Below are positions 40,313-63,929 of a stretch of 64,000 nt of DNA, piece after piece. Position 1 is the first letter of the stretch. Each line of letters starts with the position of its first letter. A program made the position numbers and the translations under genes. The notes below the pieces were generated by a model, which worked only from the letters and a program-made list of their open reading frames with translations, was not told where the DNA came from and did not search any database. The DNA is from Bilabrum cf. latius (lineage: Eukaryota): assembly GCA_965178125.1 (NCBI GenBank), contig OZ237746.1, forward strand, positions 992,001 to 1,056,000, in the 5' to 3' direction.

Positions 40313-40432
40313 AGGCCTTCATCATCGGGGCTTCCCAGCTGGTCACCCACGCTAGTACTGGCCCGACTGGTGATTGCTTAGCTTCTGAGGTCGGCAGGGC
40401 TCAGGCGGGTCCAATCACATATGAACGAAGAC
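40313..40432 (-). rRNA. 5S rRNA (IGS-linked copy 5)
   Basis: Same sequence as 2365-2484. Confidence 0.9.
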
Positions 40433-41631: not shown

Positions 41632-41831
41632 NNNNNNNNNNNNNNNNNNNNNNNNNNNNNNNNNNNNNNNNNNNNNNNNNNNNNNNNNNNNNNNNNNNNN
41701 NNNNNNNNNNNNNNNNNNNNNNNNNNNNNNNNNNNNNNNNNNNNNNNNNNNNNNNNNNNNNNNNNNNNNNNNNNNNNNNNNNNNNNNNNNNNNNNNNNNN
41801 NNNNNNNNNNNNNNNNNNNNNNNNNNNNNNN
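41632..41831. other. Assembly gap (200 N)
   Basis: Run of n characters; true length unknown. Confidence 1.
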
Positions 41832-42878
41832 GACCGAACCTCGCAGTTGGCAAATCGTCTTCCTCGCACAGCAGGATCGACAAGACCAAGGACGTCAGCA
41901 CTGACAAGAGTTTCTAGGAAGACGCCATGGGATACAACGGCTATGTTGCGTTCCGATCGAGTGTAGAGGAACCGGACAAACGCCCTTGCCCTCGCGATCA
42001 CTTCGCTAACAAGCTCGCGCCTATCAGGTTGCCACCAAGTATCTTCATTTGTTCGCACCAAACTAAAGTCTACGTGTGGAAACTATGTCTTCATCTGCGA
42101 GGTTACTGAAATGGTGTGGAACAAGGTGCGATTTGCTTCATGCCTTGCAGGCTCACCACACGACCTATCAGTAGACACTAAGCTTACCGCAGAAACTGGA
42201 CTTCTTCTATCGCACGGATGCAGCCCATATGCTTCACGGACTGCCTCAACAGCGACCATTGGAACCTTTGTGCCGAAGATGCGGGTTGCAGTTTGCAGCG
42301 TCCGCAGCAGCGGGCTCACTAGAACCACGTCAACGCGTACTTTGCGCCTGGATAAATCTTCCCCTACAGCTGAAGCCTGTCGTTTGCCTGTGTCGTCCAG
42401 TCTGCGAGATGAGAATAACCAGTAGAGTCAAGCCAATTCTGCGCAGTCAAGCGTACCACTGCACATGTACGCCTGCAACAGGCTGGGTACGCTGCAGACT
42501 TTTCAATACTCATCAATGTTATCATAAGATCATATTTACAGATCAGACTACAAACTAGGGCGCCGGAACTGCCATTGACGCGTCGACTGCTTCCACCAAG
42601 TGCTTCCGCACCTTCACGCATTTGAAGATGGAAAAGGGGTTCTCACGATGCATCAGTCAGCGATACGTCGAGGTATGCCTTTTTGCCTCTATCTCTAGCG
42701 GCGACATTCTGCGAAATGTATCAGTAGATCGATCGTCGTCCATGTGCAAGCCCCATCAAGATGGTGTGATCCATCAACAAGACCACCACAGCCTCACATG
42801 CAACGCCTGCCCGTGTCGAACTAAATGCACTCTCTTAGCATCATTCAAACTCATCGCATAGCCCGCTGGTACCGCCAT
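41832..42878 (-). CDS. Histidine phosphatase / phosphoglycerate mutase-like protein, spliced; 3' end runs into the gap (possible tail in 41340-41631)
   Basis: Exons 42878-42798, 42708-42647, 42401-42188 and 42094-41832 (into gap), with GT...TCGCAG introns of 89, 245 and 93 nt. Spliced product: ..VHLVRHGQALH/NVAARDRGKKAYLDVSLTDAS/LDDTGKRQA..VSPLLRTLQTA..REAYGLHPCDRRSPVSA/MKT[TAG]FPHVDFSL..IAVVSHGVFL..FANCEVR. The RHG, SPLxRxxQT and SHG motifs are intact. Confidence 0.88.
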
Positions 42879-43076
42879 GTACTTGATGTTCGCAACGAAA
42901 GTGTGGTCGCGTGACTGAAGGTGCGATGTGCATTTGGCTCCGGACTTCCGGCAAACAAAATGAAAGTTGAACACGTACCACGTTCGTACACGACTTGATC
43001 AACAGCTGAATGGCAAAATACTTGCATCATGCATCCAGAGTTTTGAAACTAGTAATACGTGACATTCGAAAAAGAG

Positions 43077-43196
43077 AGGCCTTCATCATCGGGGCTTCCC
43101 AGCTGGTCACCCACGCTAGTACTGGCCCGACTGGTGATTGCTTAGCTTCTGAGGTCGGCAGGGCTCAGGCGGGTCCAATCACATGTGAACGAAGAC
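43077..43196 (-). rRNA. 5S rRNA, solitary copy outside the array
   Basis: Identical to the IGS copies except A>G at 43185. It keeps the CTCTTTTTC terminator, and its flanks are unrelated to the IGS. Confidence 0.88.
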
Positions 43197-45719: not shown

Positions 45720-48700
45720 TCAGCCGTCGGGGGGTGGACGCTCGCCATCCCGTCGACGATGCCGCGCCATTCCAATGGACAAACGTGCAAACTGCAAGGC
45801 AAGGTCTTCAGCACCACCGCCAGACGACGTCAAAGTCTCGCGCCCCACGCTAAACCGGTGGTCCCGGCTAGTCTTGGACTTGAGCTTCATCATGAGCGAT
45901 CGAAGCCCTGCTGGTGGGCCACCATCACCTGCCTCGGCAGGCCTTGCTGATGGCTCACCATTCAGACAGGCCCGCCGTGCGAACTTGCGTGCTGCTAGAA
46001 CAGCTTCATCATGGCTACCCCTGTGCATGCACTCAAAGACTTGGTGGCATGCAACGTGGGCGGATGGCAGCACCGAGGTATCAGCTTGCCGCTCGCACGC
46101 CAACCCTGTGACATCTTGGCTCTATCCACGGGACACCCAGACTGGTGCAACCGAAGCTTGTCCGAGTTCACTAGCGTTTGCATGCTTCTGCCCAGTTCCA
46201 TGCCTGAATGACCGCGGATTGTGGGACAGGAACCCGAGAGTTGCGATCAGCAGGCTACCTAGTTCAGCGCCACTAGGCACCGGTTGCGGGTCTGGCGCAA
46301 GTGTAGCGGTGGCAGCGGGCTCTATCGTCACGCCTAGGCGGCTTAATTCACGTGAGTCCAGCCTCGGGGCGGACTGCAATGTCAACCCCGCGCAAATTGC
46401 GCAAGCCAGAGCAGCCTGCAGATGCTCGTGCTCGGCTAGCTCGACAAGTGGATCCGTGCGGGAGGTTTGCTTGGCAATGCCGAGCTCTATGGCACATGCA
46501 AGCACAACTAGCACAGACGCAGCCAGATCGGCACCTTGCAGCTAGAGGAGGCCGTCCAATGCATCCCCGTGGCGACGGACCCGCACTCGAATGCCGGGTC
46601 GTGCTACGCGAGAGTCAGACCCACCGGCACCCAGACCCATCCACGACCCCGACTCCAGCACCACTTGAACCCCTTGGACAGCTGGTACAGCAGCAGTGGG
46701 CTGCAAAGTTGGCGACGCTGCTACTGCACCTTCCTTTTCCACCCACTCGCCGATAATTGGGACTCGCATTGTGGTACTAGACGAAGCCTCTCGGGTCCAC
46801 CCTTGGGGCCTGATGTGCGCGATCTTCCGAGCCGCTGCTCGTCTGAATAGCCGCATTGACTCCACTAGCTATTCCGCCAGACTCCTCACGGCAATTTTCT
46901 CGGGGGGCACAGAGCGGTCGACTGCGTCGGCGCCACTGCGGTGGACCGCGGGATCGGCAACAGCTCTCCACAAGGCTACCGGCCGCGCACATCGCACCAT
47001 ATCATCGTCCGGCAGCTCTTGCGGCGGGGCCAAGCGACACCCAGCACAAGTTAGGCACAGTGACAGGGAAGCTTCTGGCTTTACAATCCCTTCCGCCGCA
47101 GTGGGCCGTGCCTCCCAGTGACCAAGCCCAAGGCAGCGGCGCCGTGCCATGCTGGCCACAGCGCGGGCTACCTAGTCCGCTGCGCCGGCGTCTCGGCTCC
47201 AGATGGCTTGCAGCGCCGCGGACCACTCTTCGAAACTTGAGACACCCTGTGCCTCATCCTCCAGTAGCAGCGAGGGCGCGCACGCCACCGTCTCCTCGTC
47301 CCGCTCACCGGCTGCCTGCGCGAGCGTTGCGCAAGCAGCATCCCACAGCAGCGTTGATACAGCTTCCGGTGAAAGTAGCAGTGGAAACGACCGCCCACGC
47401 TTCTGGTCATGCGCCTCCAGAAGGACCCCTAGCCCAAGGGTTGCGGGCTCATCCCTGTGGTCCGAGACGGAGGCGTCTCGAGCATAGCCTCGTGGCACAG
47501 ACAGGAGCGCAGGTGCCAGCAGGCAGGCCTGGTGCGGGGCGTCCGCAACACTCGCGTCACCGTCGCCTCGCGCGTGCGCAGGACTGGCATGCGTGCCCTC
47601 TCCCGTAGCGTCATCTTGCATGGGCACTGGTGGCGACTGCATCAAGTCCCCGGCCGCGTCGGCCGCGGTGCAGGCTCCTGTGACAGCGCGAGGTGGGAGC
47701 GCTGCAACGGGCAGCTTGGGCTGCTCGGGGGCGGGCATACCCATTAAGGCATGGAATATACGCAGGTTCTCCCCCAAAGCGTCCTTGCGGCCCGACCTTG
47801 GGATTGGCACCGCTGGCTCCCATGTGGCGTCACATCCTGGGCTTACCTACGAGTAACACACCACGGGATACGCGCTCAGCACGAGCCGGGTGCCTCCCAG
47901 CAGGGAACGGCAAGCCATCCGGCAGATCGGACTCGGTCGGGTGCTGGCAGTTGGCGTTGTGCCAAGAGACAACGCAATCGAAGAGAAAAGCGGCCTGCTG
48001 CTGTCACTGCCTCTATCTGCGTGAGGAAGACCAAGCAATCCCCGCGCAGGCTCCAACTCCTGGGCAGCCGGACCGGCAGCGCCTGAGCCAGTCGAGGGCG
48101 GCAGCAGCGGGGCAGCGCCAGAGCCGCCGGCTTTGACGGCCATGGAAGGGCGGTCTCGATCCAGATCCTGCCTCCCCGAGAGCAGCAGTGAGAAGGACCC
48201 TGGCTGCATGTCCTGCAGAAAGTGCCTGGCCACCTTACCGATCAGGATACCCGGCAGCCGGACCCGAGCGGCCGCCTTGCTGACCAGCTCATCGCCAGCT
48301 GCACTCCGCATGGTGTGGTGGGAGTCGCTGTGGGAGTCGCTGTGGGAGTCGCTGGCAACGTCCGATCCAGCATCCGCGGCAGCCGCTACCACGCTTGGCG
48401 CTGGGAGACTCTGCACGGAAGCACTGAGCCCAAGGGTCGCACGTGCGACGACCTGAAGCTCTGGACTCGGCCGTGCCAGCGCGTCGAGGGCTGCATCGGC
48501 CCCCAAGTCGCCCGCGGATTGTTCTGCGGCTTCATCTGCAGACAGGCTCGTGCCGACCCGGCCGGCGGCTGTCGAGTATCGGGACGCTTCGTGACCCGGA
48601 GAACTATCGAAGGCGTGGGCCGAGTCCTGCACGCACAACTCCAGCAGCGCTTGCTTGGCCCACTGCCTCCAGTCATCGCCCGGTGGACACTGGTGGTCCC

Positions 48701-51700
48701 GCAGGAATCGAGCGATGGCACCGGCCACTCGTGGCCTGTCGCCGATGTCTCCCCCGCTCTCGTCTGCACCGTGGCTAACCGCAGCACCGGGAGGCAGGAT
48801 CTGAGATGCCTGCATAGCCTCAGCCTCTGCTGCCTCGGCCACTGCACGGGCCCCGCCAGTGTCCTGCCATTCCTGCAGCCCGCCCTCCACCGCTCGCCCC
48901 GCCGCTTCCTCGTCCAGACGCCCCTTGGCCTTCTCGCTGGAGGCCCACTCCTGCAGGCGAGCCTGCTCGGCGCTGCGGGCAGCTCGCACAGCGGCCTCTG
49001 TGTGATCTCTGATCCACCTCCTTCGTAGCAGCACAGCGCACCGGGCCGCCACAAGGGGCCGAGCATCCGGCGGCCCGATCCACAGGACCGCATCCCCTGG
49101 CTGGTCAGCGCTGCCTTCCGCAGGCCCGCTTGCCCCGAGCCACGACTGCACGAGCGCAGAAAGCTGCTCTGTAAGCTGCACAACTTTGGGATCCATTCTC
49201 GAGCGAGGGACCGTGAGGCCAGCGCTCGCGGGGTCGGCGCTCTGCCGCACCTCATCGAGCGCCGACTGCATGGATGCAAGCACTCGGCCCGCCGACCCGT
49301 CACCGTCCGCGGGGGCGACCCGCGCCAGCGTCTCGCGGTCGAGCAGCACGTCTGCAGAGGACTGCGAGCTCGAGTCGCCGCAATAGGCAACCACTCGGAG
49401 AGACGGGGTCCAGCGGAAGGCGCTACTCGTCCCACCTGCAACGGACCCCTCTCCATGCGCGCTGCCCTACGACGTTCCATCAGCACTTCCAGGGAAGCGT
49501 GGAGTCAGCACCCACCGGAGGGAAGACGTGATGGTAGCCACGCGGGCTGACACCGCCCGGTAGCCAGAATGCTCGGCCGCAGCGACCGCGACCCCAACTC
49601 GATCCGACCCAGCAGCCGCCTCTAGCGCAGAGGCGGGCGTGGCTGTCTCTGCAGCCAGCGCCTGCACGTGTTCCACCGCGGCTGGGGCCGAGTCGCTATT
49701 TGGCTGAGAAAGGCCCAAGGCAACTGTGGCCTCTTGCACAGCCCCGGCCAGGTCTCGTGGACGAGGCGCCTCTGACGCCACTACCCTGCCGAGTGCCGAC
49801 GCTGCAGCCGCCGTGCGAGCCTGGAGCGTGCCTGCGAGCACGGACTCGACTCGACTGCGAGCGTCGATGGCTTCAGCGTTCTGACGAGCGTTGTGGAACA
49901 GGACGCTGTCGGGCAAGTTGCCGCGCACATCTCTCAGCATCACAGGCACGCGTGCAGCCCTGCGCAGCACTCGACCGGTCAGCGCCGCTCGCTCCGCCTT
50001 ACCGGGCCCATCCGCGTCTACCTGCGCGCTGGCTGGTATCACACCGGCGCGTGCAAGCGAAGACGACCTGGCACGCAGCGGAGTGCCCGGACGAGACGGA
50101 GGCCGGCCGCGACCGAACGTGTGTGCCGAGGGTGCCAGCGAGTCTGCTTCGCCGCCGCGCGGCTGCTGCAGCCAAGGCATCCAGTCCAGGTCTGGCCGCG
50201 CATTGAGCAGCAGGCGACGGAGTGCGTCCAACTCGGGCGAGGCCTCGGCCTCGCGGTCCATTGCGTCGGTGCTCAAGCTCCTGGGCCGCAGCGCCTGCTC
50301 CACATCCTTTGCACTGCACCCGGGACGCAGCGGCAGCACGAGACCGCAGGCGGCGCTACCGGCCACGGGCGCGCTGGCTGTGGGAGAGATATGGGGATTC
50401 TCCAGGCACCCTGCCGCTGCCAGGGCCCGCGTCGCATCTGCACCTGCCTGCATCATGCCGGCCAGCTCGGATAGCTTGCTGTGCGCCAGCGCGCGACGCT
50501 CTATCGCCTGCGGCTGCCGAGACGCGAACCGCAGCCTGCGCCTGCACTACTCTATGCGGAGACGCAGCGCCTCGCTGCAGTGCCTCGCACCCAGCATGGA
50601 CGCGGCCAGGGCGGCGCAGCCTCGCACCATCAGCTGCGCGTGGCGAGGACCAGGTGACGGAGGCGTGGCCGTGCGTGCCAGGCTTCCGACCCGCAGCCAC
50701 CGATGTCCTTTCCCTCGCTCCTCCGTGCTGGCTCCTCGCGCTCTGGCCTGCCGCAGGCTGCCGCGCCACGCAGACAGCAACTGCAATCCAGCCCGCCGGC
50801 GCGAGACCGCGCACCGGACGAGGGCCTCTGCGATGCGACGGGCCACCGGGTCGCAGCACGCCAGGTACGTCGCGTGCTGCACGATGCTCCCAGCGGGAGA
50901 CGAAGCTGCGCTGGATGATGACAAAGCGTCCGCGCTACCGAGAGCCCCGCCTCCTTCCACCGCGAACTGCGCGCTGGCTAGGCGGCAGGACCACGCTTCA
51001 ATCGGCGAAGCGCGGTCCTTGCTGGGTGCTGCTTTGGTGCAGCGGTGCGCTGCGAGAAGCGCGGAGCAGGTGGCACCAAGGGACTTTGGCCTACAATCGG
51101 GCCCGAGGGCCGCCTCGAATGCTGCCTGGTGGAGGACGCGGTGCGCACCGAGGCTCACAACGCTGTCGCGCGCGATCGGAATCCTCCCTCCAGCCGTGCT
51201 GCCTGCTGCCGTCCGCGCAGCATCGTTCGCAGGTTCTGTCCCGGGCGAGACCAGGACTAGCGGGGCGGGCTCGCTGGCCTCTAGCGGGGTATTCCACACC
51301 AGCAGCATCCGAGTCGCATCGCTGGCGCCGGCCGCTGCCGCCTCAGTCTTCTCACTCCCCTACCGCGACTTGACAATGGGCTGCGCCCGCGGTCGGATGG
51401 AATCTCGGAGCTGCTGGGCAAATAGGACAGCCCCGGCCGCCGCCTGCTCCAAGTCTGCATCCTCTTCTTCGGTTCGGTTCGTCCCCGGCCTGCTGCCTGC
51501 AGCTGCAGCCAGGAGCAGGTACCGAGCCGCGTCGGCTGCGAGCGGCAGGCGGTCAGGGCCCTCGAAGTCCTCGTCGTCTGGATGAAGCCCCGACCCCGGC
51601 CGCATACCCATGGACGCGGCCTCGCCATCCGTAGCACGGCTAGGCTGTGTGCCGCCCCGGGCAGCGGCAGCCGGTGATCGCGTTTGGGCTGCCACCGAGG

Positions 51701-54700
51701 CAGCCAACTCGCAGGACCATTCGCGCGTGGCCTGCCACCACACCTCTTGCCACGGCTGCCCGTCGCCCAGCCCTTCGTTCAGCTGTAGCGACCCCAGTCC
51801 CGCCTAGATTCCCGCGCGCATGGGACCTGGGATGTCCCCGCAGCAGGCCAGAGCCATGCTGGCCTCGTCCACGGAGGGCAGGCCTAGCAGGACTGAGCCG
51901 CTGCCGGCCACATCGTCTGTTTGCCACGAATTATTCCGCAGGGCAGCAACCGCTCGCATGCGCGGAACTGCGGCGGGCGAGGCGGCGGCGTGGGAAGCCA
52001 GCCGCAGCCGTTGCATGGCTGCACCGGCGCGCACTGCGATCCCACGCGGCTCTCTGCCCGGCATCGATGCGAGCAAGGTGGCCAGCACGCTGGAGGCACC
52101 CATCACGCGCCCCATTTCCCGCGAACCGTCGTTGAATTGGGTGCAAGCAAGGGCCAGCAGGCCGGGGCCAGCCAGACGACGCTGCAGGGAATCCATGGCC
52201 CGGACGCACCCCTCCTCCCACTCCAGCCCGGCGCGGCCCTCGGCCTCGCCGGCCGGTCCGAGTGGTCCAGGCTCCGGGCCGGCTTTCCGCATCCGCAGCG
52301 TCAGCCTTCCCTGGCTCGCGTCCACCCACTGTAGCGATAGTGGAAGCAGCTGCAGCAATTGCCGGAGCAGCCTGCCCCTCGCAGGCGCGCTCACGACAGG
52401 CGGCCACACCTGCTGCGACCGCAGGCGCATGGCTTGCTCTCGAGCCACAGGAGCTCCAGCCATCAGCCCGCGCACAGCTCGCAAGCCACTGCTTGGTGGT
52501 ATCACGCTGCGACCCTCCGTGAGACGAGAGCGCAAATTCCGCGCCGTAGACCCAAAGACAGCCCCCGTGGAGACATCGGCGGAGACTCCCGGCCTCTGCC
52601 GCCCAGCGCTAGCGTTCCCGGCCCCTCCTGGCCCTCGGGCAAGCACTGCCCCCGCTAGTCCGTGCGCCTCCTGCTGCCTGGCATCTTGCACCTGCTCCAG
52701 CGCCATGGACTCGACTGCTGCCCTGCGAAGGGCTTCCGCAGTTTGCTCGCAGGAGAGGGACAGCTCCCAGCCTGCCACGGGCCTCGCGCCGTACGTTCCG
52801 TGCATGGCGCCGACACGTTCTCCAGACGCTAGGTGTCCGTGGCCAAGTTCTGCATCCGCCACCCGGGGCGGGCGGCCGTGGGCTCCAGGTCGCTGCACGT
52901 CGGACCCGAAGAGGTCCGGGTAGTCAGTCCAAGCCCCGAGCGCAGCCTCTCGACGAAGCGCGGCGGCAGCCGAGGCGTCGTTGGTAAGAGGGTCGCCACC
53001 GTGCATGTTGAGCCGCTCCAAAGCATCGGCACCACCGCTGGCGGACAGCTCGCTGCCGACGCCGCCTTGCGGCCGGCCCCGCACGGGGACGGCGTCCGGC
53101 AGCGCGGCCTGCCCGCCCGGCTCCACGAGCAGCACCACCCCGGGCTGCCACGGAGGCAGCCGGTCCGGCAGATCCACTCCCCCGCCTTCACCCTTCTCCA
53201 CGCACAGCTCGCCGCTGGGACGGGACTCGTCCCGAGCTCCCAGCACCACTGCCACCCGGACCGTCTGCCTACCCACCGCGGCGGCAGTGCGCACCAGGGT
53301 CCTGTCCACGGCGGCACGCACGGACCCGCTGCTGCCGACCGCTGGCGCTGAAGAAGCGGCGGGTGACTCACCCCGGTGCAGAGATAGCCGATCCCGCTCC
53401 CCTGCCACCCCGTGCGCGGCCTCGACTGGGCCACCAGCCAGCCAGCCACCGGCCAGCGCAAGCGGAGCGATCCGGCGCCGACGCCACCGCGGGGCTAGGC
53501 TCGCTGCCCGGGTGCGTGCCGGTGCCAAGGCAGGTGCAACGGCCCGCCGGAACGTACCCACCCGCATCGCAGGGCTTGGCGTAGACCGACCAAACTGCAC
53601 AGAGGGCCTGCGGTTCACCAACCAGGACTCTAGAGCCGAAGCATCACGCAGCGGACCCGCCAGCTACCGCCCCCGTGCATGCTCAGCGCCACCCTCTGTC
53701 GAATCGCTCCTGCCAAACCTGCGCCAGCCCATGGCGCCGGCTCCGGGCCGCAGCCAGGCAAGCCCGTCCTCGCCCGAGCTCTCCGACGGCAGCTCCAGCA
53801 TGTCTGCGTCCCAAGGATTCTCGCCCGGCCCGTCTCCACCCTCCGAGCGCGACTCTGCCGAGCGGGAGGTGCGGTAGAAGGGGTCTCGCTCCGTGCCCGG
53901 CCCAGCAGTTCCATGGCTCCTGCCGGCCGCGGATCCCCTACTACTCTGCAGCTGCTCACGCCCCGTGAACCACCCCTGGTCCTGCGGGTGCTCTCCCTCT
54001 GCTTTCCCGTCCTCGATCGCCATGGGTACCGCCCCGCCCTCGATCCGCCGCCTCTCGCCGCCCCTAGACCCCAGGCGCGTTGCAGCCCCCGACCACTCCT
54101 CCTCGGGCTGCAGCTCCAGCGCCTGGCCCGCCTGCTGGCTGTCGTTCTGCCACTCGCTTCCTAGATCCAACAAACCCATCCCGTCTCTTTCTCGGCCGCG
54201 CACCAACTCGGACGCGGCAGCCACGACAGCGGTAGGCAGTCCGTCCGGCCTCACCCGCAGCTCCTCCGCCAGCTCTTCCCAAGCGCTGGCACTGCGGGCG
54301 GCAAGAGCTCTAGAGGCCGCCACTTGCCTCATCGCCGCCTGTCGCGCCGCAGCCGGGCCAGGAGAGCTGCTCCTGTGTCGCTCCGGCACTGTGCTCGTGC
54401 TCTCCCACTGACCGGGTTGGCCGCAGCGCGGGCGGGGGCAGATCGCTGCAGAGGCTCCCAGCTGCTCCCTTGACAGCCCGATGAGCCGTGGCTCCAGCGC
54501 CTTGCGCACGTCCGCGGCGTTTGTGCCTATCCCCGCCCTACCCAGCAGCAGCAACTGCTCCAAGGGGCACAGCCTCGTGGTGTCGGCCCTGCGAGCCACC
54601 GGCGAGTAGACGTGCACTTCGAGCTCCGGCGAATGCTGGGTCTCGTCACCCTCCGCAAAGGAACGCGGCGCCTCTGGTGGTTCGGTGCCGTTCTTCGTCG

Positions 54701-57700
54701 TGGCCCTGGTTCTGGTTCTGGTTCGGGTTCGGGTTCGGGAGGGCGTGTGTCCCTGCATGAACACTCGCACCACGCGGAGCTCACCTCCGATGCGCTAGGC
54801 CCACGCAGCCACCTGCCTTCCTCCCGAGCCGCGCACCCGGATGCTGATGGGCTGGGCCCGGCCGCGGCCCAGCATGGCAGTGCCACTCGGAGCCACCGGG
54901 AGCATGGCCATGGATACGGCGAGCGGAGCGGGAAACTTGCGCACGCTGCCTCCTGGCACCGCATCGCCGCCTGGTCCTTGCACCTGACTCGCAGACAGAG
55001 CGCACGCCGCCTCCACTCGCGCCCAGAGGTCCAGGCCGGCCCTCGAGCCGACAGACACGCTCTAGATCCCCAATCCCGCGTCGTCCCGCAGGCCGCCTTG
55101 CGCGAGCTCGAACCAGGCGCCCTGCTCCGGCCGCATTCCAGCGCCCGCTGCCGTGGCCTGCCTGCGGTGTAGCAGCCATTCGCGAGCTGCGTCCCGCACC
55201 TGGACCAGGAGTGCCTTGCGCTCCACGCCGATCATCGCGCCCACCGTGTCGATGCCCCCGCTGGACCTGGAACCGCCCTCGCCCTGTTCCTCGCCCTGCT
55301 GCACCGCGTCCGCCCCCCTGTCCAGACCTACATCCCCGCTCGAGGCCCCTAGCGCGAGCGCGCCCTCCCGCAGCAGCCGCTCCCACGTCGATGCCCGCAC
55401 CATGTCGCCGGCCGCGGCGTGCACGCCCAGGTATGGATCCACGGGCGACAGTGCTGCTGCGAGCGCGTCGTACCCGCCGGCTCTCCACCGGCCGACGGAC
55501 AGCCGGTCCACGAGCGCGGCCGCGACGCGGCAGAGGTCCCCGGAAGCGATGGACGCTCGTTCTGCAGGAGACCCGGACTGCTGCGCGATGCGCGCGGTGG
55601 CCCACGAAGGCAGCTGCACGTCCCAGCTGCGCTCCGAGGCCTGCCCGCGGCCCGATCCAGAGCCGCCAATCCCGCCGGACGGCAGCATGTGCGTGCCCTG
55701 TGCCTCAATGGCCAGCCGCAGCTGCGGGGAGGGGAACACACGCAGCAGCAGAGCACCGGAGGGCTGCCGCCACGCCTCGACTCGCGCTGGCAGCCTCCCG
55801 GGGCCCAGCCGCACAGCCTTGCTCAGCAGGCGGGACCGCTGCCGCACGATCGACACCAGCACGCGGCCGGTGACAGGGTGCCTTCGGAAAGCCAGGAACT
55901 GCGCCAGCGAGGTCACGACGGCCCCGACGGCGTCGAGGCTCTCGGAGATGCCTCCTGCCACCGCCCGCCCCTTGCCGCGCGCGGAAGAAGAAGAAGAAGA
56001 CGACGACGACGACGCGTCGGCGCTTTTGCCCTCGTTCGTCCCTCGCTGCGCTCCGAGCTTGCGTCGCAGCGCCAGGGCCCCGAGGTCCGTGCCAGGGCCC
56101 GCCAAGCGCCCGGCAGCGCTCCTCTCTCGGCCGCGGCTCGCGTTCGCGCCAGAGGCTCCCCGCAGTGCGGGTGGGAGCGGCCCGGGCGCGCTCCTCGGCG
56201 CCTTTCGCCCTCTCGCGCGCAGCTTTGGAGCCATCTCTAGCAGCTTTCGTCCGGCGCGGGTCCCCCGCAGCACCTCTGCGACGTGGGCCTCGTCGTCGTG
56301 GGTGGCAACTACGCGCCACACCGCGGCTCTCTGGTGGTACACGCAGAAAAACACCCGCCCGAACGCGTGAAATGCCGCGATGGTGCACAGCGCGAGGCCC
56401 TCGGCCCCGCCACCCTGAGGCGTGCCGCCGCTCATCCCCAAACTGCCCTCCCGGGTGTTCCACCCAGCCCCTGCGCTTCGCTGGACTAGCGCGGCCTCCT
56501 CGTCCCTGCCGTAGTTCCGCAGGACGGAGCTGAGCAGCAGGGGAGTAGCAGCCGCTGCATCCTGTTGTTGGTGTGAATCAGTCGAGCCGCCGGCAGTGGC
56601 GCCGCCATCGATGTGTTGGTGTCGCCCAGCGGTGCGTGCAGCTGGCCTGGCGTCGTACTCCCACTCGCCAGGGACCTTGGACACCCCGAGCCACACCCTC
56701 GAGTCGCGCAGCACGGCTCGCAGCACCTCGTCCAGGGCTCGCAGCCAGCCGCCGTCGCCCCCGTCACCGTCTACGGTGGGCACTCCTCGCCCCGTGCGCC
56801 GCCTGCCGTGCTCCCGCTTCCAATCCAGCTGTCCCGCCTCGGCATCTCGCTGCGCCGCCGCGCTGATGCTGCCACCGAGGCCATGCTCCGGACGCACGTG
56901 GCCAGCGCTGCGACCCGTGCGAGACTCATCCTGGACGTCTGGCTCTGCCGTGCCTGCGGCAGCTGGACGGCGCGGTGGGCGGCTGGCCCCCTCGGCAGCA
57001 TCGCCCGGCCGCCCCTGACCCCGCTCAAGCTCACCGTTTACGTCCTGCACACCTCCATACAGGTTGTACCCCACGTGCCCGTCTCCCAGCAGCACCAGGC
57101 TGTCCGCCTCCAGCGCCGTCACATACATGTGGTGCGGCGGAGTCTCTGCCGGAGTCACTGGCCCCGGACCCGCGCCGTTGCCAGCTCCTCCACCAGCACC
57201 GCCTTTGCCTGCTCCTCCTGTCTCTGACGACGAGCCATGCACCACACGCGTGATGCGACCGGGCGCCAGGGCCACCAACGCCTTGGCCGCCGTGTGCGCC
57301 TTGTCCGAGACGTACTTTGTGGCGATGGCAGCCGTGTCCGAGGATGCCAAGGTCACGGCTCCGTGCCCCGGCCCAGCGCCCGCCCCCTCCCCGCGTTTGC
57401 GGTGGCCGGCCGAGGCGGAGGCCGAGACAGCTGTGGCGGGGGCTCGCGCGTCGCCCGGGGCCCATCCTCCGTGCGGCCTCAGCGCCCGGAGGGCCGTCTC
57501 GCTGTGCGCCGACACGACCGCGTACCTGAGGTAGAGCTCGCTGCACCGCGCCTCCACCCAGGCCGCGATGGCACGCATCGCCGCGTTGCCGAGACGACAG
57601 CCGCTCCCAGCGGGGGCGGCGGGCCACTCCGGGTGCAGGATCCTCTGCCGGACGCTCGCCACGGTGGCCGGCGCGGGCAGGCCCAGGTCCTCTCGTCCGG

Positions 57701-60700
57701 AGCCCGGCTGCGGACGCCCGTCCGTCTCTGCCCTCAGCCGAGTGGCTAGGTCCCAGGGCGCCTCCAGCAGCAGCAGGCGCGCGCTCTCCCACAGCGTGCC
57801 GGCGCCTCGAGTCATGGGGGCCGACAGCAGGCCGCGCAGCTGCGCCGCCGAGTCCTTGCTGCCCGCGTGCGCCACCGAGTCCCCCGGCCCGAGCACACCT
57901 CCCTCCCTCCCTCGGGCCACGGCACGCTGCCGCAGCAGCCACCACTGCCGCCCCGCCTCCCTGCGCGCCTCCCTCTCCTCCTGCGGCGTGCGCCCGTCCG
58001 GTACGAGCAGCATGCCCAGGGCCTCTGCCACCAGCACGAAGGACACGGGGGGAGTGTCCGCGGCGGCGGCCCGCTGCAAGTCACTCGCCATCCGCAGGGC
58101 GAGGGGGCCGGGGCCAAAGGACGAGGCGGGACCCCCTTCGTCCGGGCGCGACACCTGCAGGCGGGAAGGGTCCGCGGCGGCACCGGCCCCCGACCCGCCC
58201 CCGCCCCCGCCCCCGCCGGCGCTGGTGTCCCCATCGGCCGCCGCCCTCACGCCGTCCTCCCCGCCACCCAGCCGCCAGCACGCCTCCGACTGCGCCTCGA
58301 GGCAGCTGGCCAGCCCCGGTTCAACGGCGGCGCTCATGGCCTGCGAGAAGAGCGCGTGGTCAGCGGGGGACAGGTCGCCGCCTTCGCCCAGCCGCAAGGT
58401 CTCGTCGCCGGGCCCGCTCGGGGGCATCTCCAGGAGCCGAGCGTGCTCGAGCGGCAGGCGGCTCTGGGCAGCGCCGCCGCTGTTGCTCGGCAGCTGCTGC
58501 ACCTCGGTGCGCGTGGGGGGTGGCAGGGCGGGGCAGCCCCCGAGGGGCACCGCCACGGCATCGGGAGCGGACGCGTCCCTGTAGCCCGACATGGCCCTGG
58601 CTTGCGGGGGCAGCAGCTGGCCAGACGATCCACCCGAGCCGTTCGATCCGGCCTGCGCACGGCCAACCAGGCCCAGGCCCAGGCGGCTCGGCTCCACCTC
58701 TTGCCACTCGGGACCCACCCAGCCGCCGCGGCTGAGGAGCCCCTCGCGCAGCAGCTGCGGCGCACCCGCCTCGCCCAGCACGAAGCGCCAGTTCCACACG
58801 GCCGCGATGCTGGGCGGCAGGGAGCGCGCCGGGGGGCTCTGTGAGCTGCCGGCGCCGATGGAGCTCGGGGGCGTGGGCAGCGGCATCTGCATGGCCGGCC
58901 GGCCCGTCTGCCTCCGGTCGCCGTCCTCCCGACCGGCGCCCTCGTCGTCCTCGCCCCCGCCGTACCCCAGCTGGTCCCGCCACAGCGCAGCCCCGAAGAT
59001 GTCGGTGCGCTCGGGGGCCCCCGGCAGCGGGTCACGCGCGCCTGCTCCGACAGCAATTGTACCAGCAGCAGCTTGCAGACCGCAGGACCGCAGGCGTCCG
59101 GCCCGTGGCGCGGTGGGCGCCAGCAGCACCACCACCCTGGGCCGGGGTCGCAGCTTCCGCACGCGGGCAAGCGCTCGCGCCGCCCGGCTGCGGCCCGCGG
59201 GGGTGCGGCCGCAGGTCAGGTACGTCACGGCGCACCGTCCCGCGGCCAGGACCCGCTGCAGGGCGCGGTGGGTCGGCGGCAGGCCCTCGTCGATTGCCTC
59301 CGGGGCCCCGTCGGCGGTCTGGGGCAGAGCCATGGGCCTGGCTCCCGGGGCCATGTCCCTATCGTACCCCGGGGCCTCCCTCTGGTCCACCTCGGACTCG
59401 CGCGCCCAAGCCCGCAGGTCGGGCCGCACCCCGTCCTCCAGCAGCCGCGGGAGGAGGGTGAAAGCGCCCGCGCACTCGGCCCGAAGCGCGTTGACGAGCC
59501 GCTGCTGGGCGAGCAGGGGAGTCTCCGTGGCGAGCACGAGCACCACCGGCCGCCGCAGCCCCTGCACGGGGCCCAGCAGGCCCCGGATGTCGGCCCCGGA
59601 CAGGGCGGAGGCGCCCTGCGGCGTCTGCGGCTCGGACGCCTCCCCGCCGCCCGGGGACTCATCCCCACCGCGGCGGGGCCCAGCGGGCAAGCCATCCACC
59701 GCCCCGGTGGCGCTGGCCGCCTCGCTGGCGACCCTCGCTCTCCTCCTCTGCTCGACCACCAGCGCGAGGCCCTCCGCCCGCTCCGCCCGCACCGTCTCGG
59801 CCACGCACGCGCGGACGCCCTCGGCGCCCTCCAGCCGCAGGACGAACTGCGGCGCCAGCATGGCCGCCTGCGAGAGGGCCTGGCACCACGCCAGCAGGCA
59901 GCCGGCGGCAGCTCCCGCGGCGCTGCTGCCGGTGCCCCACGAGGCCGGCCTGGGGCGCGCGGCGCTCTGCACGGCGAGCTGCATGAGCCCCCCCCGGCGC
60001 CGCAGCTGGCCCCTGGCAAAGTCCCGGTGGGCCGGCACCAGCGACGTCTCCGGGGGAGGAAGCACGGAGTCCTGCAGCAGCGGCCCGCTGCGCCCCTCCA
60101 CCGACGGGTCGGCCTCGCGCCCGGGGGCCGGGCCGTCCGCCACGCTGGACCCCAGCGGGGGCGCCGGGGGAGGGGACGCGGCCGCCGCCACCACGGCCCG
60201 CACGCACAGGGTGGGGTCCGCGAGCATCGCCCGCGCGGCTCGCAGGCGCCAAGGCGGCAGCATCACCCGGCCGGCCCTCGCGGCGGACGCAAGCCTGCCC
60301 GCGGCCGCGCGCACCTGCTCCCGCAGCGCCCCCGAGCCAAGGCGCCGCTCCCGCAGGAGGGACCAAGGGGCCAGGCACAGCGGGCTCACGGACAGCCGGT
60401 CCTCCCTCTCCGGCCGGGGCAGCGCGGGGGAGGCGGACTGCGCGTGGTCCACGGCCGGCAGCAGGTGCGAGCGCACGCGCATCTGCTGCGCGCCGCCAGC
60501 CCCGGCCGGTGGTCCCCGGCCCGTCGTGGCGGCCGTCGACTCCGACTCGCGGTCTGCCGAGGTGGGGGCCAGCAGCAGCGCCGCCACCTGCACGAGCATC
60601 AGCAGCGGGGGGGCGGGCGCCTCGATCCGGAAGAGCCCCTCCAACCCCTCCGCAGTGATCCCGCGGGCCGCCACTGCCGCCGCCTCGGCCGCCTGCAGCA

Positions 60701-63700
60701 TGGTCCTCCGCTCCCGCAGCCGCCTCCTCCCGCAGCTCCCCCGGAAGGCCCTCTGCAGCTGCGCCGCCGCGAAGGACGTCGCGAGGAACAGCCGCCTGGC
60801 CTCGGCCCGCGCCCGCCCCTGCCGCCCCCTCTCGGCGCGCTGCAGCAGCCGGGTGGCCCCCACCACGCGCCGAAACTCGGCGGCGATGCGGCGCCCCCCG
60901 GTGCCCCTCCACAGCCTCTGCAGGTTGGTGGCCGACCGCGTGGCGGCGCCGCGCAGCCGCGCCGCCCGCACCCTCGTCTGCACCCCGCGCACCAGCGCCT
61001 GGATGGCGATCGAGGCCTCGAAGGGGTCCCACACGTGCAGCGTCACGCCGGCGGGGGGCTCCGTGTCGGCCCAGTGCGCGGGCGCCCGCCGCCGGAGCGT
61101 CCCTCCCCCGACCCTGCCCGCCCGCCGCGCGTACTCCCGTCTCCACCGCGCGTGAGGATGCTCCGGGGGCGCAAACACGCTGACCCCGATGTAGGGCAGA
61201 GCCTGCGCCTCCCGCGCCTGCCGCACGAGCTCCTCTTCCCGCTCGGCCGCGGCCCGCGCCGCCTCCCTCCGCGCCGCCTCAGCCTCACCTCGCCTCTGCT
61301 CCTCCTGCCGCCGCACCCGCCGGGCCGCCTCCTCGGCGGCGGCCTCCTGCCGGCGCTAGGCCTCCCTCGCCCCTGCCACCGCGGCCGGCCCCGAGGCGCG
61401 CACGGCCTGCTCGACGCGCTGGGCACGGGTGGAGAACGCGTCGGGCCGCGCGAAGGACTCCGTAGGCGCTCCGGCCCGGCCCCGGTGCCCGCCGTCCAGC
61501 GAGTCCTCTCCGAGGCGTGGCTCGGCCCGCGCCACGTCCGCCTCTCCCCCTTCCTCCTCCTCCTCCTCCCCCACGCGATACGAGTCCCCATCAGCCCCAG
61601 AGGTCGGGCGGCCGTGGTCCTGCCGGTGGGCCGCAGGTGGTGGCGCCTCGTAGTCGAGGTAGCCGTCGGGGCCCACGCGCATGCGGCCGCACGCCTCCGC
61701 CTCGTCCAGCAAGTACCCGTGGGCCCACAGCACCGCGGCCCTCTCGTCCTCGCCCTCGCCCTCCTGTTCGTTGCGGAGCAGCTCGTCGCCCGGACCGGGC
61801 GCGCCGGGCAGGGGCGGCAGCAGCTGTGGGCCGCCCGTGATGCTGTGGAGGTCCCGTGCCGCGCGGGTCCTCTCGACATCTGCCAGCCTGCGCTCCGCAT
61901 CGGCGAGCAGCAGCGGATTCCCATCCAGGGCGGGAAGGGGAGGCGCCTCCTCTCCGTCCAACATAGCCTCGTCACTCTCCGCCGCCGCGCCTGCACCTGC
62001 ACCTGCACCTGCACCTGCACCTGCACCTGCACCTGCACCGCCGCCAGCAGCGTCGTGCCCACCGTCCTTTTTGCCGCCGCCCGCCCACCGGCCGCGCGCA
62101 GAGTGCGCCTCCCCGCCCAGGCCCGCCTCAGCCTGAGTCTTGGACTCGAGGGACCACCCGCCGCCGCGGATGCCGCCCGAGGCAGAGCTCGCGCTTGCGC
62201 CCGGACCCCCACGCCCGGCCCGGCCCCTGCGCCTCACGGCAGCCCCCAGCCACGGCAGGGCGGCCCCCACCACCTGGAGGTCTCCCATGGCCTTGCCCAG
62301 ATACGGCACGCCCCCGTGCACGAACGGGGGCCAGTGCCCGCCCCCTTCCTCCCCCGCAGCAGGCCCCGAGGCGCGCTCCCTCCGGACAGCGTCCTCCTCC
62401 AGCTGCACCAGCGCGGAGGGCACCGCGCCCTGCCTAGCCGCCGCTGCCTCCCTCTGCGCGGCCCATCGGCTGCGGCTGGCCGCCCTCCAGCGCGCCACGG
62501 CCCCCACCAGCTGCATGCCCGCCTCCCGCAGCCGGTGCACGAGGTCCCCCGACGACTCGCGCGCCTGCGCCCTGGCCGCCGCAACCGCCTGCCGCTGCTG
62601 CCGAGTGCCCGTGGGCGCCGACTCGCGGGCCGCTTTCTCCGCAGCCGCCGCGTGCGCCCCCAGCCGCACGGCCCTCCTGAGCAGCTCCTCCCGCTGCACC
62701 GCCGCGACCACGCAGTCCCTGTGCAGCGCGTCCAGCTGGTCCACCGTGACTCCAGGTTTCCCTTCCCGCGCCTGTGCTTCCTACCGCTCTCCCTGGGCGA
62801 GCGACGGCCGGCTGTCGCGGCCCCACGGGACCTGTCCCACCCTCGCGGCGCTGGAGGAGGCTGCACCAGCAGCAGCAGCAGCAGGGGTGTTGGCTGGGGC
62901 GGGCAGGCTGGGGAGCCGCCCCGACAGCCTGCCCGCTTCTCTGGCGGCTGCAGCCGGCAGCATGCCGCTGTCTTCAAACGCGGTGACGCTGGCGCTGGCA
63001 CCCAGGGCTGCACCCAATCTCTTGCCACCATCTACATCGCCGCCTGCCAGGGAGCGGGGGGGGCGTTGCGGCATCATCCGGCGAACACCGAGCGTCACGG
63101 AATGCCCCGCCACTCCAGCAACCGCCGCCTCCCTCGCCGCCCTCCTGACAGCCAGGGAATCGGCCGGACCCATCGACCCGCCGAGCCGGGAGCCCAGCGC
63201 CGCCCCCGCCCCCGCCCCCGCCCCCGCCCCCGCCCCCTCGTGCGCGTCCTGCGACCCTGCGGCCCGGCCCGCGTAGCCGCGGCTGGCACTGGCCATTGGG
63301 GCGTCTAGCAGGGCCATAAGCTCGCCGCCCGCCCGCGCCCGCGCCCGCGCCCCCTCTTCCCCCAATGCAGCAGCCGGCACGGCACGCCCTGCCTGGCCTG
63401 CCTGCCCGCCGCTGCGGCGCGCCTACCCGGATAGGGCGCTGCGACCCTCATCGGACAGGAAGGTGGCCGCTGCAGAGCCACGAGCCGCGCGTGGTTGCGC
63501 TCGGTTGAGCCATTTTCGGCGGGCGCTCAGCTGCTCGGCGCGCTCGGCTCGCTGCGACCGGCGCAGGCGCTTCTGAAATCCGTCGGTGCGGTTGATGGGG
63601 CAGTTGGGGTCGAGCGACGCATCATATTCGGGGATGCCTCCAGCACCAACTTGTTGACGATTGGTACCACCCGCAGACCCGCTTCGGGCCCCAGCTCCAG

Positions 63701-63929
63701 GATCGTAGCCAGGTCTCGGGCGAACGCTCTGGCTCATTGGCTCGTCGATGCGAGGGTGGCCACGGTCACGCGCTCTTCGACTTGTTGCGGCTCGGCTACC
63801 ACCCCCTTGATCATCATGCAAGCTACTCATCGATCTTGCTTGCCTGCGCAAGGATTCAGACGGTGCTTTTGCTCCGCGACCACCATCGTCGCTCTCTTTG
63901 CCCCATGCCTGTGGCAGGCTAGGCAACAT
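45720..63929 (-). CDS. Giant (~6070 codon) Ala/Gly/Arg-rich protein with coiled coil and 4 IQ calmodulin-binding motifs; requires TAG read as sense
   Basis: Sixteen ORF-track entries share one frame (all stop coordinates divisible by 3). Fifteen separators are TAG and the last stop is TGA (45720-45722). I translated the gaps between the ORFs and found no other stops. First ATG is at 63929, although the frame stays open to the window edge. Small in-frame introns cannot be excluded. Confidence 0.82.
60721..61004 (-). other. Cluster of four IQ motifs within the giant CDS
   Basis: IQALVRGVQTR, LQRLWRGTGGRR, LQRAERGRQGR and LQRAFRGSCGRRR fit [IL]QxxxRGxxxR at regular spacing. Confidence 0.85.
61990..62037 (+). 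repeat. (CCTGCA)8 coding microsatellite (Ala-Gly run on the minus strand)
   Basis: Direct reading. Similar frame-preserving repeats occur at ~63201-63237 (CCCCCG), ~54708-54738 (GGTTCK), ~55984-56013 (GAA/GAC) and ~48320-48354 (12-mer). Confidence 0.9.

What the first reader, a model, noticed from the sequence alone, without database searches (positions are those of the whole stretch)
45720..63929. Variant nuclear genetic code: an 18.2-kb single reading frame interrupted only by TAG (UAG = sense codon)
Seen: the minus-strand frame has TAG at 63423, 62781, 61356, 55062, 54795, 53664, 51804, 51360, 50547, 49467, 47847, 47172, 46869, 46542 and 46122 (lowest coordinate of each codon). There is no TAA or TGA until TGA at 45720. 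Protein text continues across them, e.g. GAREA*RRQEAAAEEAARR (coiled coil), AQGER*EAQARE, SLAE*LVESMR, LRIE*CRRRL. If stops were random and TGA at least as likely as TAG, 15 of 15 TAG has probability at most 2^-15. Known: nuclear stop reassignment occurs in several protist lineages, usually as UAA+UAG=Gln. Inference: UAG encodes an amino acid here, and the contexts favour Gln or Glu. Whether this is already reported for the organism needs a literature or database check.
Basis: partly seen in the sequence, partly recalled or inferred. Interest (0 to 1): 0.93.

Follow-up and report, generated by a model that had tools for sequence, protein, structure and literature searches.

The report
UAG read as an amino acid
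An 18-kb gene beside the ribosomal RNA genes of a GC-rich eukaryote stays open only if TAG is read as an amino acid while TAA and TGA are avoided, and a distant relative's copy shows the same pattern, so this lineage probably uses a rare variant genetic code.

Summary
The minus-strand frame 45720-63929 has 6,069 sense positions with 15 TAG at the listed coordinates, no TAA, and TGA only at the end. From its own position-specific base frequencies, 19 TGA and 13 TAA were expected.

A metagenome contig (L001) holds a relative with about a third of aligned residues identical. It repeats the pattern: 14 TAG, 0 TAA and 0 TGA in 1,397 codons, then TGA, after which the frame collapses.

Fragments of a closer relative end at four of the window's TAG positions. 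At five others they carry Q, Q, E, L and S.

A second gene in the window, an intron-containing histidine phosphatase, probably also has an in-frame TAG.

The best reading is that UAG alone has become a sense codon in a nuclear genome. UAA is not a sense codon, and UGA closes all three gene ends seen. The amino acid is unresolved; Gln or Glu fit slightly best.

The organism could not be named. No tRNA, eRF1 or confirmed RNA data were reachable. UAG-only reassignment is a known kind of code change, so this is probably a new member of it.

The parts
45723..63929 (-). Giant reading frame of 6,069 codons. It is Ala/Gly/Arg-rich, has no Pfam domain, and is open only if TAG is a sense codon.
   Evidence: GC at codon positions 1/2/3 is 0.76/0.62/0.77.
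45720..45722 (-). TGA, the only non-TAG stop in the frame and the presumed terminator.
   Evidence: The contig of run X5 ends at 45582, 138 nt downstream.
63423..63425 (-). In-frame TAG, codon 169.
   Evidence: No relative covers it.
62781..62783 (-). In-frame TAG, codon 383.
   Evidence: Relative P0018 has Ser here.
61356..61358 (-). In-frame TAG, codon 858.
   Evidence: No relative covers it.
55062..55064 (-). In-frame TAG, codon 2956.
   Evidence: Lies inside an X5 contig with 0 differences.
54795..54797 (-). In-frame TAG, codon 3045.
   Evidence: Relatives P0012 and P0017 have Gln here.
53664..53666 (-). In-frame TAG, codon 3422.
51804..51806 (-). In-frame TAG, codon 4042.
   Evidence: Relative P0010 has Glu here.
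51360..51362 (-). In-frame TAG, codon 4190.
   Evidence: Relative P0010 has Gln here.
50547..50549 (-). In-frame TAG, codon 4461.
49467..49469 (-). In-frame TAG, codon 4821.
   Evidence: The 99%-identical fragment P0013 ends exactly here.
47847..47849 (-). In-frame TAG, codon 5361.
   Evidence: Relative fragment P0003 ends exactly here.
47172..47174 (-). In-frame TAG, codon 5586.
   Evidence: Relative fragment P0005 ends exactly here.
46869..46871 (-). In-frame TAG, codon 5687.
   Evidence: Relative P0004 has Leu here.
46542..46544 (-). In-frame TAG, codon 5796.
   Evidence: Relative fragment P0004 ends exactly here.
46122..46124 (-). In-frame TAG, codon 5936, 134 codons before the TGA.
   Evidence: Relative fragment P0008 ends exactly here.
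60726..61004 (-). Four IQ-like motifs ([ILVF]Qxxx[RK]Gxxx[RK]; the consensus is recalled, not taken from a tool) at codons 976, 1003, 1029 and 1058.
   Evidence: 4 hits, against a mean of 0.075 and a maximum of 2 in 200 shuffles of the protein. Pfam reported no IQ domain.
41832..42878 (-). Second gene: histidine phosphatase (His_Phos_1) with three GT-AG introns, cut at its 3' side by the N gap. My reading of the exons is 42878-42798, 42708-42647, 42401-42188 and 42094-41832.
   Evidence: Pfam PF00300, E=4.4e-16. Exons and introns were read. The model rests on no RNA data.
42083..42085 (-). TAG in the histidine-phosphatase gene. It is in frame in exon 4 if intron 3 ends at TCGCAG|A (42095), and it is the last three bases of the intron if the acceptor is CATAG| (42083).
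   Evidence: Introns 1 and 2 both end in TCGCAG followed by A, as does the 42095 acceptor. Both choices keep the frame (93 or 105 nt).
43078..43196 (-). Lone 5S rRNA gene on the same contig as the giant ORF.
   Evidence: Rfam RF00001, 78.3 bits. The 129-nt match 43068-43196 is 99.2% identical to the 5S region of the rDNA units.
1..41236 (-). Tandem nuclear rDNA units of about 9.4-9.5 kb, each SSU-5.8S-LSU-5S. They are separated from the ORF contig by a 200-N gap at 41632-41831.

Best explanation
The window holds a real, very large nuclear protein-coding gene of 6,069 codons with no introns, in a GC-rich eukaryote whose ribosomes read UAG as an amino acid. UAG alone has been taken out of the stop set. 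UAA is not used as a sense codon, and UGA ends every gene end that could be examined.

By analogy with described cases, the inferred mechanism is a cytoplasmic tRNA with anticodon CUA. It would have arisen by one anticodon change from a tRNA that reads a neighbouring codon (Gln-CUG, Glu-CUC, Leu-CAA and the like), together with an eRF1 that recognises UAG poorly. Which amino acid is inserted is not settled; Gln or Glu are slightly favoured.

Shown: the stop-codon pattern, its repetition in relatives, and codon-like divergence. Inferred: translation itself, that the change holds genome-wide, and the tRNA/eRF1 mechanism.
For: 1. Window frame: 15 TAG, 0 TAA and 0 internal TGA in 6,069 codons. Expected from position-specific base frequencies: TGA 19.2, TAA 12.8, TAG 53.4.

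2. Independent repeat: L001, a metagenome contig found with the relative P0016, has 14 TAG, 0 TAA and 0 TGA in 1,397 codons (expected 15.4, 8.7, 9.3). A TGA follows at 4193. After it, 13 stops of all three kinds occur in the remaining 308 codons, and GC falls from about 0.6 to 0.46.

3. TAA is not a synonym of TAG. If the TAA/TAG ratio followed CAA/CAG, 3.2 TAA would be expected in the window and 6.0 in L001. With GAA/GAG the figures are 2.6 and 9.0. None is observed.

4. Close relative (fragments 74-93% identical): 9 of the 15 window TAG positions are covered. At 4, the relative's ORF fragment ends exactly there. At 5, it reads S, Q, E, Q and L. Four fragments of the relative end where the window has CAG or GAG: codons 722, 3269, 4196 and 5007.

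5. Window versus L001: mismatches at codon positions 1/2/3 are 0.48/0.43/0.67 over 938 aligned codons. In 276 codons of conserved blocks they are 0.31/0.25/0.63, with pN 0.28 and pS 0.72. Those blocks lie downstream of 9-13 window TAGs.

6. All 3 of 3 gene ends seen are TGA: the window ORF, the L001 ORF and the convergent neighbour ORF on L001.

7. A second gene (His_Phos_1, E=4.4e-16) has a TAG that lies in frame in exon 4 under the acceptor shared with its other two introns.

8. Contigs of four public runs under four organism labels show no differing letter at any covered TAG and no credible splice joint. Run X5 covers 45582-55405 without a break, which includes 12 TAGs.

9. The mechanism is inferred from passages of PMC5304391: a CUA anticodon reads UAG but not UAA.
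Against: - Almost everything rests on one fast-evolving gene family with no Pfam domain.
- No run is confirmed as RNA. X5 is labelled 'RNA? (probably DNA)', so retention of UAG in mRNA is not shown.
- No tRNA gene lies in the window or in L001, and no genome was available, so the tRNA-CUA, eRF1 and other genes could not be examined.
- In the window TAG is under-used (15 against 53 expected), so it is a rare and perhaps poorly decoded codon there.
- The stop codons of the close relative are known only as ORF ends in protein records, not as DNA.
- Residues opposite TAG are all one-step neighbours (Q, E, L, S, K) and do not converge on one amino acid.
- The TAG of the second gene could instead be the 3' end of an intron.
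- One Logan contig of run X1 lacks one base of a CCC run at 57682, which would shift the frame. X5 agrees with the window there.
Confidence: 0.82

Rival explanations
1. Both UAA and UAG are reassigned (the common UAR=Gln type), and TAA is simply too rare to appear in a GC-rich gene. [quoted passage not shown]
For: In the window alone the absence of TAA is weak evidence: 3.2 expected from CAA/CAG gives P=0.04, and 0.6 expected from a Leu-type TTA/TTG ratio gives P=0.57. Only three gene ends were seen, so use of TAG as a stop elsewhere cannot be excluded. UAR=Gln is the commonest nuclear variant (passages of PMC5304391 and PMC11687900).
Against: In L001, where GC3 is only 0.56, TAA is expected 6.0-9.0 times as a Gln or Glu synonym and 8.7 times from base frequencies, yet it is seen 0 times (P=2.6e-3 to 1.3e-4). 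In the window, base frequencies predict 12.8 TAA and none is seen. TAG occurs 134 codons before the TGA in the window and 30 codons before it in L001, so it is not depleted near the end.
Confidence: 0.1
2. The TAGs are removed before translation. Each would lie in, or form the 3' end of, a short in-frame intron, or would be edited in the RNA.
For: The organism does have GT-AG introns of 89-245 nt. One TAG in the histidine-phosphatase gene could be an intron's last three bases. No confirmed RNA run was available.
Against: All 15 introns in the window and 14 in L001 would have to be multiples of three and free of TGA and TAA. For frame alone the chance is about (1/3)^15 in the window (my calculation). 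The contigs of runs X5 and X7, guessed to be RNA, show no joint that removes a TAG; the listed joints have 20-25-nt sides and non-intron ends. Protein similarity to relatives runs right up to the residue before the TAG at 4 positions.
Confidence: 0.03
3. The frame is a decaying pseudogene, or is not translated at all; for example, a GC-rich artefact or the antisense strand of another gene.
For: There is no Pfam domain. High GC gives long open frames on both strands, for instance the 1,487-codon frame at 58845-63308 on the plus strand, in register with the minus frame.
Against: A decaying gene would collect TGA, TAA and frameshifts: P(15 of 15 TAG) is 4e-4 to 6e-4, and there is no frameshift in 18.2 kb. 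The same TAG-only pattern holds in L001 at about a third residue identity, with third-position-biased divergence. No plus-strand frame is open across the region (20-40 TGA each). Four spaced IQ-like motifs are present, against 0.075 expected.
Confidence: 0.02
4. The recoding is gene-specific. UAG is still a normal stop in this organism, but in this gene it is read through efficiently by local signals.
For: Nearly all the evidence comes from one gene family. The neighbour ORF on L001 has no TAG in 181 codons.
Against: With 15 leaky stops in a row, near-complete read-through would be needed at each one (inference). The bases after TAG follow ordinary first-codon-position composition (G 7, C 5, A 2, T 1 of 15) and show no shared context. 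TAG positions turn over freely between relatives (5 of 9 changed). A second, unrelated gene probably carries one too.
Confidence: 0.03

Closest known systems
UAG=Gln with UAA and UGA kept as stops (NCBI table 15 type): the fornicate Iotanema spirale and the ciliates Protocruzia tuzeti, Hartmannula sinica and Trochilia petrani (passages of PMC5304391 and PMC11687900)
   Same: Only UAG is a sense codon and UAA is not. Gln is one of the two best-fitting amino acids here (Q at 2 of 5 replaced positions).
   Different: Those organisms mainly terminate with UAA (passages), whereas here 3 of 3 ends are TGA. The locus here is GC-rich and lies beside a tandem rDNA array with linked 5S. The amino acid is not shown here.
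UAG=Leu: the insect-dwelling rhizarian exLh (Sainouroidea) and an uncultured phyllopharyngean ciliate lineage (PMC5304391, PMC11687900; passages)
   Same: The reassignment is UAG-only. One of the five replaced TAG positions is Leu in the relative.
   Different: Three of the four 18S primers published for exLh were searched and have no match in the window's rDNA at up to 3 mismatches. Leu is not favoured by the tally.
UAG=Ser in the green alga Scotinosphaera (PMC8271138; passages)
   Same: UAG-only reassignment in a non-ciliate, with TGA seen as a terminator in one gene. One replaced TAG position is Ser in the relative.
   Different: There TAA ends actin, EF-1alpha and H3. Here Ser is 1 of 5 replaced positions. 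I judge the window's SSU (1,700 nt) and LSU (3,157 nt) short for a green alga, but that comparison is from recall (one search gives the lengths only).
UAR=Gln (table 6 type): many ciliates, hexamitid diplomonads, Streblomastix, several ulvophycean orders, and the aphelid Amoeboaphelidium protococcarum (passages)
   Same: A stop-to-sense change involving UAG, with TGA as the working terminator.
   Different: TAA is absent here where 6-9 (L001) and 3-13 (window) would be expected.
Codes in which all three stops can be sense: Amoebophrya sp. ex Karlodinium veneficum, Blastocrithidia, Condylostoma (passages of PMC12005148; search listings)
   Same: In-frame stop codons in long essential-looking genes, unedited in DNA.
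   Different: No in-frame TGA or TAA occurs here. That Amoebophrya genome is described as AT-rich, whereas this locus is 63-78% GC.

Membership tests
Nuclear UAG-only stop-to-sense reassignment (table 15/16 type) | In-frame UAG in bona fide protein-coding genes | tested here: met
   15 in the window ORF and 14 in its relative on L001, both with codon-like divergence. Probably 1 in the His_Phos_1 gene.
Nuclear UAG-only stop-to-sense reassignment (table 15/16 type) | UAA (and UGA) not used as sense codons | tested here: met
   0 TAA and 0 internal TGA in 6,069 + 1,397 codons, against expected TAA 12.8 + 8.7 and TGA 19.2 + 9.3.
Nuclear UAG-only stop-to-sense reassignment (table 15/16 type) | UAG no longer terminates genes | tested here: inconclusive
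   3 of 3 gene ends are TGA. The sample is too small.
Nuclear UAG-only stop-to-sense reassignment (table 15/16 type) | UAG falls at conserved positions of one amino acid in conserved proteins | tested here: inconclusive
   Partners of TAG in close relatives are Q3, E2, L1, S1 and K1, plus two further possible Q/E partners at ORF ends. The toy codon model cannot separate Q from E. In the distant alignment the partners are scattered (G, V, A, L, F, E, A).
Nuclear UAG-only stop-to-sense reassignment (table 15/16 type) | A tRNA gene with anticodon CUA | not testable with these tools
   No genome is held. ARAGORN finds 0 tRNAs in the window and 0 in L001.
Nuclear UAG-only stop-to-sense reassignment (table 15/16 type) | Altered eRF1 stop-recognition motifs | not testable with these tools
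   eRF1 is not in the window and no genome is held.
Nuclear UAG-only stop-to-sense reassignment (table 15/16 type) | UAG retained in mature mRNA | tested here: inconclusive
   Contigs of runs guessed to be RNA carry the TAGs unchanged and unspliced, but no run is on record as RNA.
UAR=Gln (table 6 type) | Both UAA and UAG occur in frame | tested here: not met
   TAA occurs 0 times in 7,466 codons.
Codes with all three stops as sense (Condylostoma, Blastocrithidia, Amoebophrya type) | In-frame UGA as well | tested here: not met
   There are 0 internal TGA, while TGG occurs 94 and 24 times.
Rhizarian exLh lineage | 18S rRNA matching the published exLh-specific primers | tested here: not met
   3 of the 4 published primers were searched, each with 0 matches at up to 3 mismatches. 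The fourth (F1) was not searched.

The most novel reading that the evidence does not exclude
The window comes from an undescribed, non-ciliate, GC-rich eukaryotic lineage represented by at least two divergent organisms: the window's own and the one behind L001. In this lineage UAG alone was reassigned to an amino acid not yet recorded for a UAG-only nuclear code, such as Glu or Lys, with UGA as the main terminator. That would be a new nuclear code variant, not another instance of table 15 or 16.
Probability: 0.2. Interest if true: 0.85.

Novelty: new member of a known kind. Interest (0 to 1): 0.62.

Why it matters
Nuclear codes in which UAG and UAA have different meanings are rare. The papers read here list a rhizarian, one fornicate, one green algal genus and a few ciliate lineages.

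Each new case bears on how a ribosome and eRF1 can tell UAG from UAA, and on whether such changes start from rare use of UAG as a stop. A GC-rich case that ends genes with UGA would be a useful contrast to the UAA-terminating cases.

There is also a practical point. Any annotation of this genome made with the standard code will break or truncate its genes. The public protein records found here are already fragments cut at TAG.

Tried and rejected
Genome-wide tests and earlier notes were therefore unavailable.
- Pfam found nothing for the giant protein, for the neighbour ORF on L001, or for three ORFs between the 5S gene and the giant gene.
- No RNA holder is listed among the sequencing runs. 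The sharp stop of X5's contig at 45582, and its end about 20 nt beyond the window's end, look like transcript ends. An AATAAG lies about 25 nt before the 45582 end. The run's kind is only a guess, so I do not count this as evidence.
- HMMER against 1.84 billion representatives with the last 1,200 codons gave only 7 short fragments. The three word-index searches gave 5, 4 and 1 hits, all unnamed.
- Cluster look-up gave no names.
- The first metagenome scan found no relative.
- The ESM Atlas gave no usable hit for codons 384-857.
- PDB sequence search with the histidine-phosphatase frame reached only distant relatives that do not cover the TAG position.
- I tried to infer the amino acid from the window/L001 alignment. 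Partners of TAG are scattered in poorly conserved stretches, so I rejected this as uninformative.
- I tried to name the organism. The exLh primers do not match, and the literature gave no GC-rich non-ciliate candidate.
- The supplementary files of PMC5304391 and PMC8271138 (sequences, codon tables) were not opened and might bear on lineage identity.
Full report
**What is in the window**

- Bases 1-41236 are about 4.3 tandem units of a eukaryotic rDNA repeat, all on the minus strand. Each unit is SSU, 5.8S, LSU and a linked 5S, and is about 9.4-9.5 kb long.
- A 200-N scaffold gap follows at 41632-41831.
- The contig to its right (41832-64000) carries three things:
  - a histidine-phosphatase gene with introns;
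  - a lone 5S gene at 43078-43196;
  - the long frame of the finding.
- GC rises from 0.52-0.60 in the rDNA to 0.63-0.78 across the frame.

**Check of the observation**

- The minus-strand frame 45720-63929 has 6,070 codons with 15 TAG at exactly the listed coordinates. It has no TAA, and its only TGA is the last codon.
- The other five frames hold 20-64 TGA, 20-38 TAG and 1-6 TAA.
- A stricter null uses the frame's own base frequencies at each codon position:

| Codon | Expected | Observed |
|---|---|---|
| TGA | 19.2 | 0 (P=5e-9) |
| TAA | 12.8 | 0 (P=3e-6) |
| TAG | 53.4 | 15 |

- TGA and TAA are therefore excluded as stops would be. TAG is tolerated, but is rarer than composition predicts.
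- GC at codon positions 1/2/3 is 0.76/0.62/0.77.
- The plus-strand frame in register with it is open for up to 1,487 codons. That is the usual by-product of GC-rich third positions. No plus frame spans the region.

**Relatives**

The protein has no Pfam domain. Public protein collections hold only short, unnamed ORF fragments of it. They fall into three groups.

1. *Fragments 98-99% identical to the window, from one 8.9-kb record.* One of them ends exactly at TAG codon 4821.

2. *A closer relative, with fragments 74-93% identical*. Whether it is an orthologue, a paralogue or a divergent haplotype is not known.
   - It covers 9 of the 15 window TAG positions.
   - At 4 of them (codons 5361, 5586, 5796, 5936) its fragment ends exactly there, so a stop by the standard code is kept.
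   - At the other 5 it reads through with S (383), Q (3045), E (4042), Q (4190) and L (5687).
   - Conversely, four of its fragments end where the window has CAG (722, 3269) or GAG (4196, 5007). These are one step from TAG, although two of those ends could be contig ends.

3. *A distant relative.* A 665-residue cluster member led to a 5,119-nt metagenome contig, L001.
   - Read from base 2, L001 has 1,397 codons with 14 TAG, 0 TAA and 0 TGA.
   - It then has TGA at 4193. Thirteen stops of all three kinds follow in the remaining 308 codons, and GC drops from about 0.6 to 0.46.
   - In L001 TAG is as frequent as composition predicts (14 against 15.4), whereas TAA (8.7 expected) and TGA (9.3 expected) are absent.
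   - Its TAG positions are mostly different from the window's.
   - In the local protein alignment to the window, 360 of 1,108 columns are identical.

**Evidence that the frame is coding across the TAGs**

- Over the 938 aligned codons of the window and L001, mismatches at codon positions 1/2/3 are 0.48/0.43/0.67.
- In 276 codons of conserved blocks they are 0.31/0.25/0.63, with pN 0.28 and pS 0.72.
- These blocks lie downstream of 9-13 window TAGs and 0-9 L001 TAGs.
- The alignment was made at protein level and the blocks were chosen by identity, so both steps favour this outcome somewhat.
- Four IQ-like motifs spaced 26-29 residues apart sit at codons 976-1068. Shuffles give a mean of 0.075 hits. 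The motif consensus is recalled.

**Is TAA reassigned too?**

- In the GC-rich window alone this is hard to tell. Only 3.2 TAA are expected if TAA/TAG follows CAA/CAG (P=0.04).
- L001 has GC3 of only 0.56. There the expectation is 6.0 for a Gln-type ratio and 9.0 for a Glu-type ratio, and none is seen.
- Together with the composition test, this places the case in the UAG-only class.
- All three gene ends available are TGA.

**Which amino acid?**

- Partners of TAG between close sequences are Q3, E2, L1 and S1, plus K1 between two versions of the distant relative (L001 and P0016).
- All are single-step neighbours of TAG, which is what any meaning of TAG would produce in a fast-evolving protein.
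- A toy codon model gives the lead to Gln or Glu depending on the transition bias. It never gives it to Trp or Tyr, and it never decides clearly.
- Opposite the distant relative the partners are scattered.
- The amino acid is therefore open. My odds, which include the published precedents as a prior, are Gln 0.45, Glu 0.3, Leu 0.1, Ser 0.07 and other 0.08.

**A second gene**

- The frame at 41832-42427 matches His_Phos_1 with E=4.4e-16.
- Reading the DNA gives an exon with the RHG motif, then three GT-AG introns.
- Introns 1 and 2 both end in TCGCAG followed by A. The same string at 42095 gives a 93-nt third intron and leaves a TAG (42083-42085) in frame in exon 4.
- The alternative acceptor is that TAG itself, giving a 105-nt intron.
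- I could not reach homologues that cover this position. This is a probable, not proven, second example.
- The gene also shows that this organism splices, which makes the intron-free 18.2-kb frame notable.

**Public runs**

- Contigs of four runs under four organism labels match the stretch with no differing letter at covered positions, and show no joint that would remove a TAG.
- X5's contigs run unbroken over 45582-55405, which includes 12 TAGs. They stop 138 nt past the TGA, whereas a contig of X1 continues.
- This would fit an unspliced transcript, but the run's kind is only a guess, so I give it no weight.
- One X1 contig lacks a base of a CCC run at 57682. X5 supports the window there.

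**Rivals**

- *Decay.* This would add TGA, TAA and frameshifts: P(15 of 15 TAG) is 4e-4 to 6e-4, there are no frameshifts, and the pattern would not be repeated in L001.
- *In-frame introns or editing.* This needs 29 independent frame-preserving, stop-free events.
- *Gene-specific read-through.* This needs near-complete efficiency at 15 sites with no shared context.
- *UAR reassignment or a dual meaning of UAG.* This remains the most serious sub-variant, at about 0.1.

**Comparison with what is known**

[quoted passage not shown] They also give the argument that only a CUA anticodon separates UAG from UAA.
- PMC11687900 (abstract, passages, first part of the reference list) adds phyllopharyngean ciliates, Protocruzia and Scotinosphaera.
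- PMC8271138 (passages) gives UAG=Ser in Scotinosphaera.
- Three of the four published exLh 18S primers were searched and are absent from the window.
- I judge a tandem rDNA array with linked 5S and 63-78% GC unlike ciliate macronuclear DNA. That comparison is from recall.
- Eight literature searches listed no GC-rich non-ciliate organism with this code. The library misses most subscription journals, and I could not name the organism, so prior description cannot be excluded.

**Verdict**

It can be sharpened to a UAG-only reassignment shared by at least two divergent relatives. It is a new member of a known kind unless the amino acid turns out to be unprecedented.

Noticed in passing
window 7706-9287 and 26686-28263 (compare 17141-18840 and 36109-37808): Two of the four SSU rRNA copies carry different internal deletions: 118 nt at SSU positions 1305-1422 in copy 1, and 122 nt at positions 153-274 in copy 3. 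Otherwise the copies differ at one column only. These are either degenerate array members or assembly artefacts.
   Followed up: partly
window 41832-42878, minus strand: A histidine-phosphatase (His_Phos_1) gene with three GT-AG introns of 89, 245 and 93 or 105 nt, truncated by the scaffold gap. Its introns share the acceptor string TCGCAG|A.
   Followed up: partly
window 43078-43196, minus strand: A solitary 5S rRNA gene lies outside the rDNA units, about 1.9 kb beyond the end of the array (41236), and the 129-nt match 43068-43196 is 99.2% identical to the 5S region of the units.
   Followed up: no
window 45720-63929: GC falls steadily along the gene from 5' to 3': 0.72-0.78 at 58-64 kb down to 0.63 at 46-48 kb, with GC3 falling from 0.95 to 0.59. 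No TAG occurs in the 2,097 codons with the highest GC3, between the TAGs at codons 858 and 2956.
   Followed up: no
window 60726-61004, minus strand: Four IQ-like motifs spaced 26-29 residues apart suggest calmodulin or light-chain binding, in a protein that is otherwise without features.
   Followed up: partly
window 57682: One Logan contig of run X1 lacks one C of a CCC run relative to the window. Run X5 agrees with the window.
   Followed up: partly
L001 4572-5117, minus strand: A convergent neighbour ORF of 181 codons, open at the contig end. It has no Pfam match and no TAG, and it ends in TGA.
   Followed up: partly
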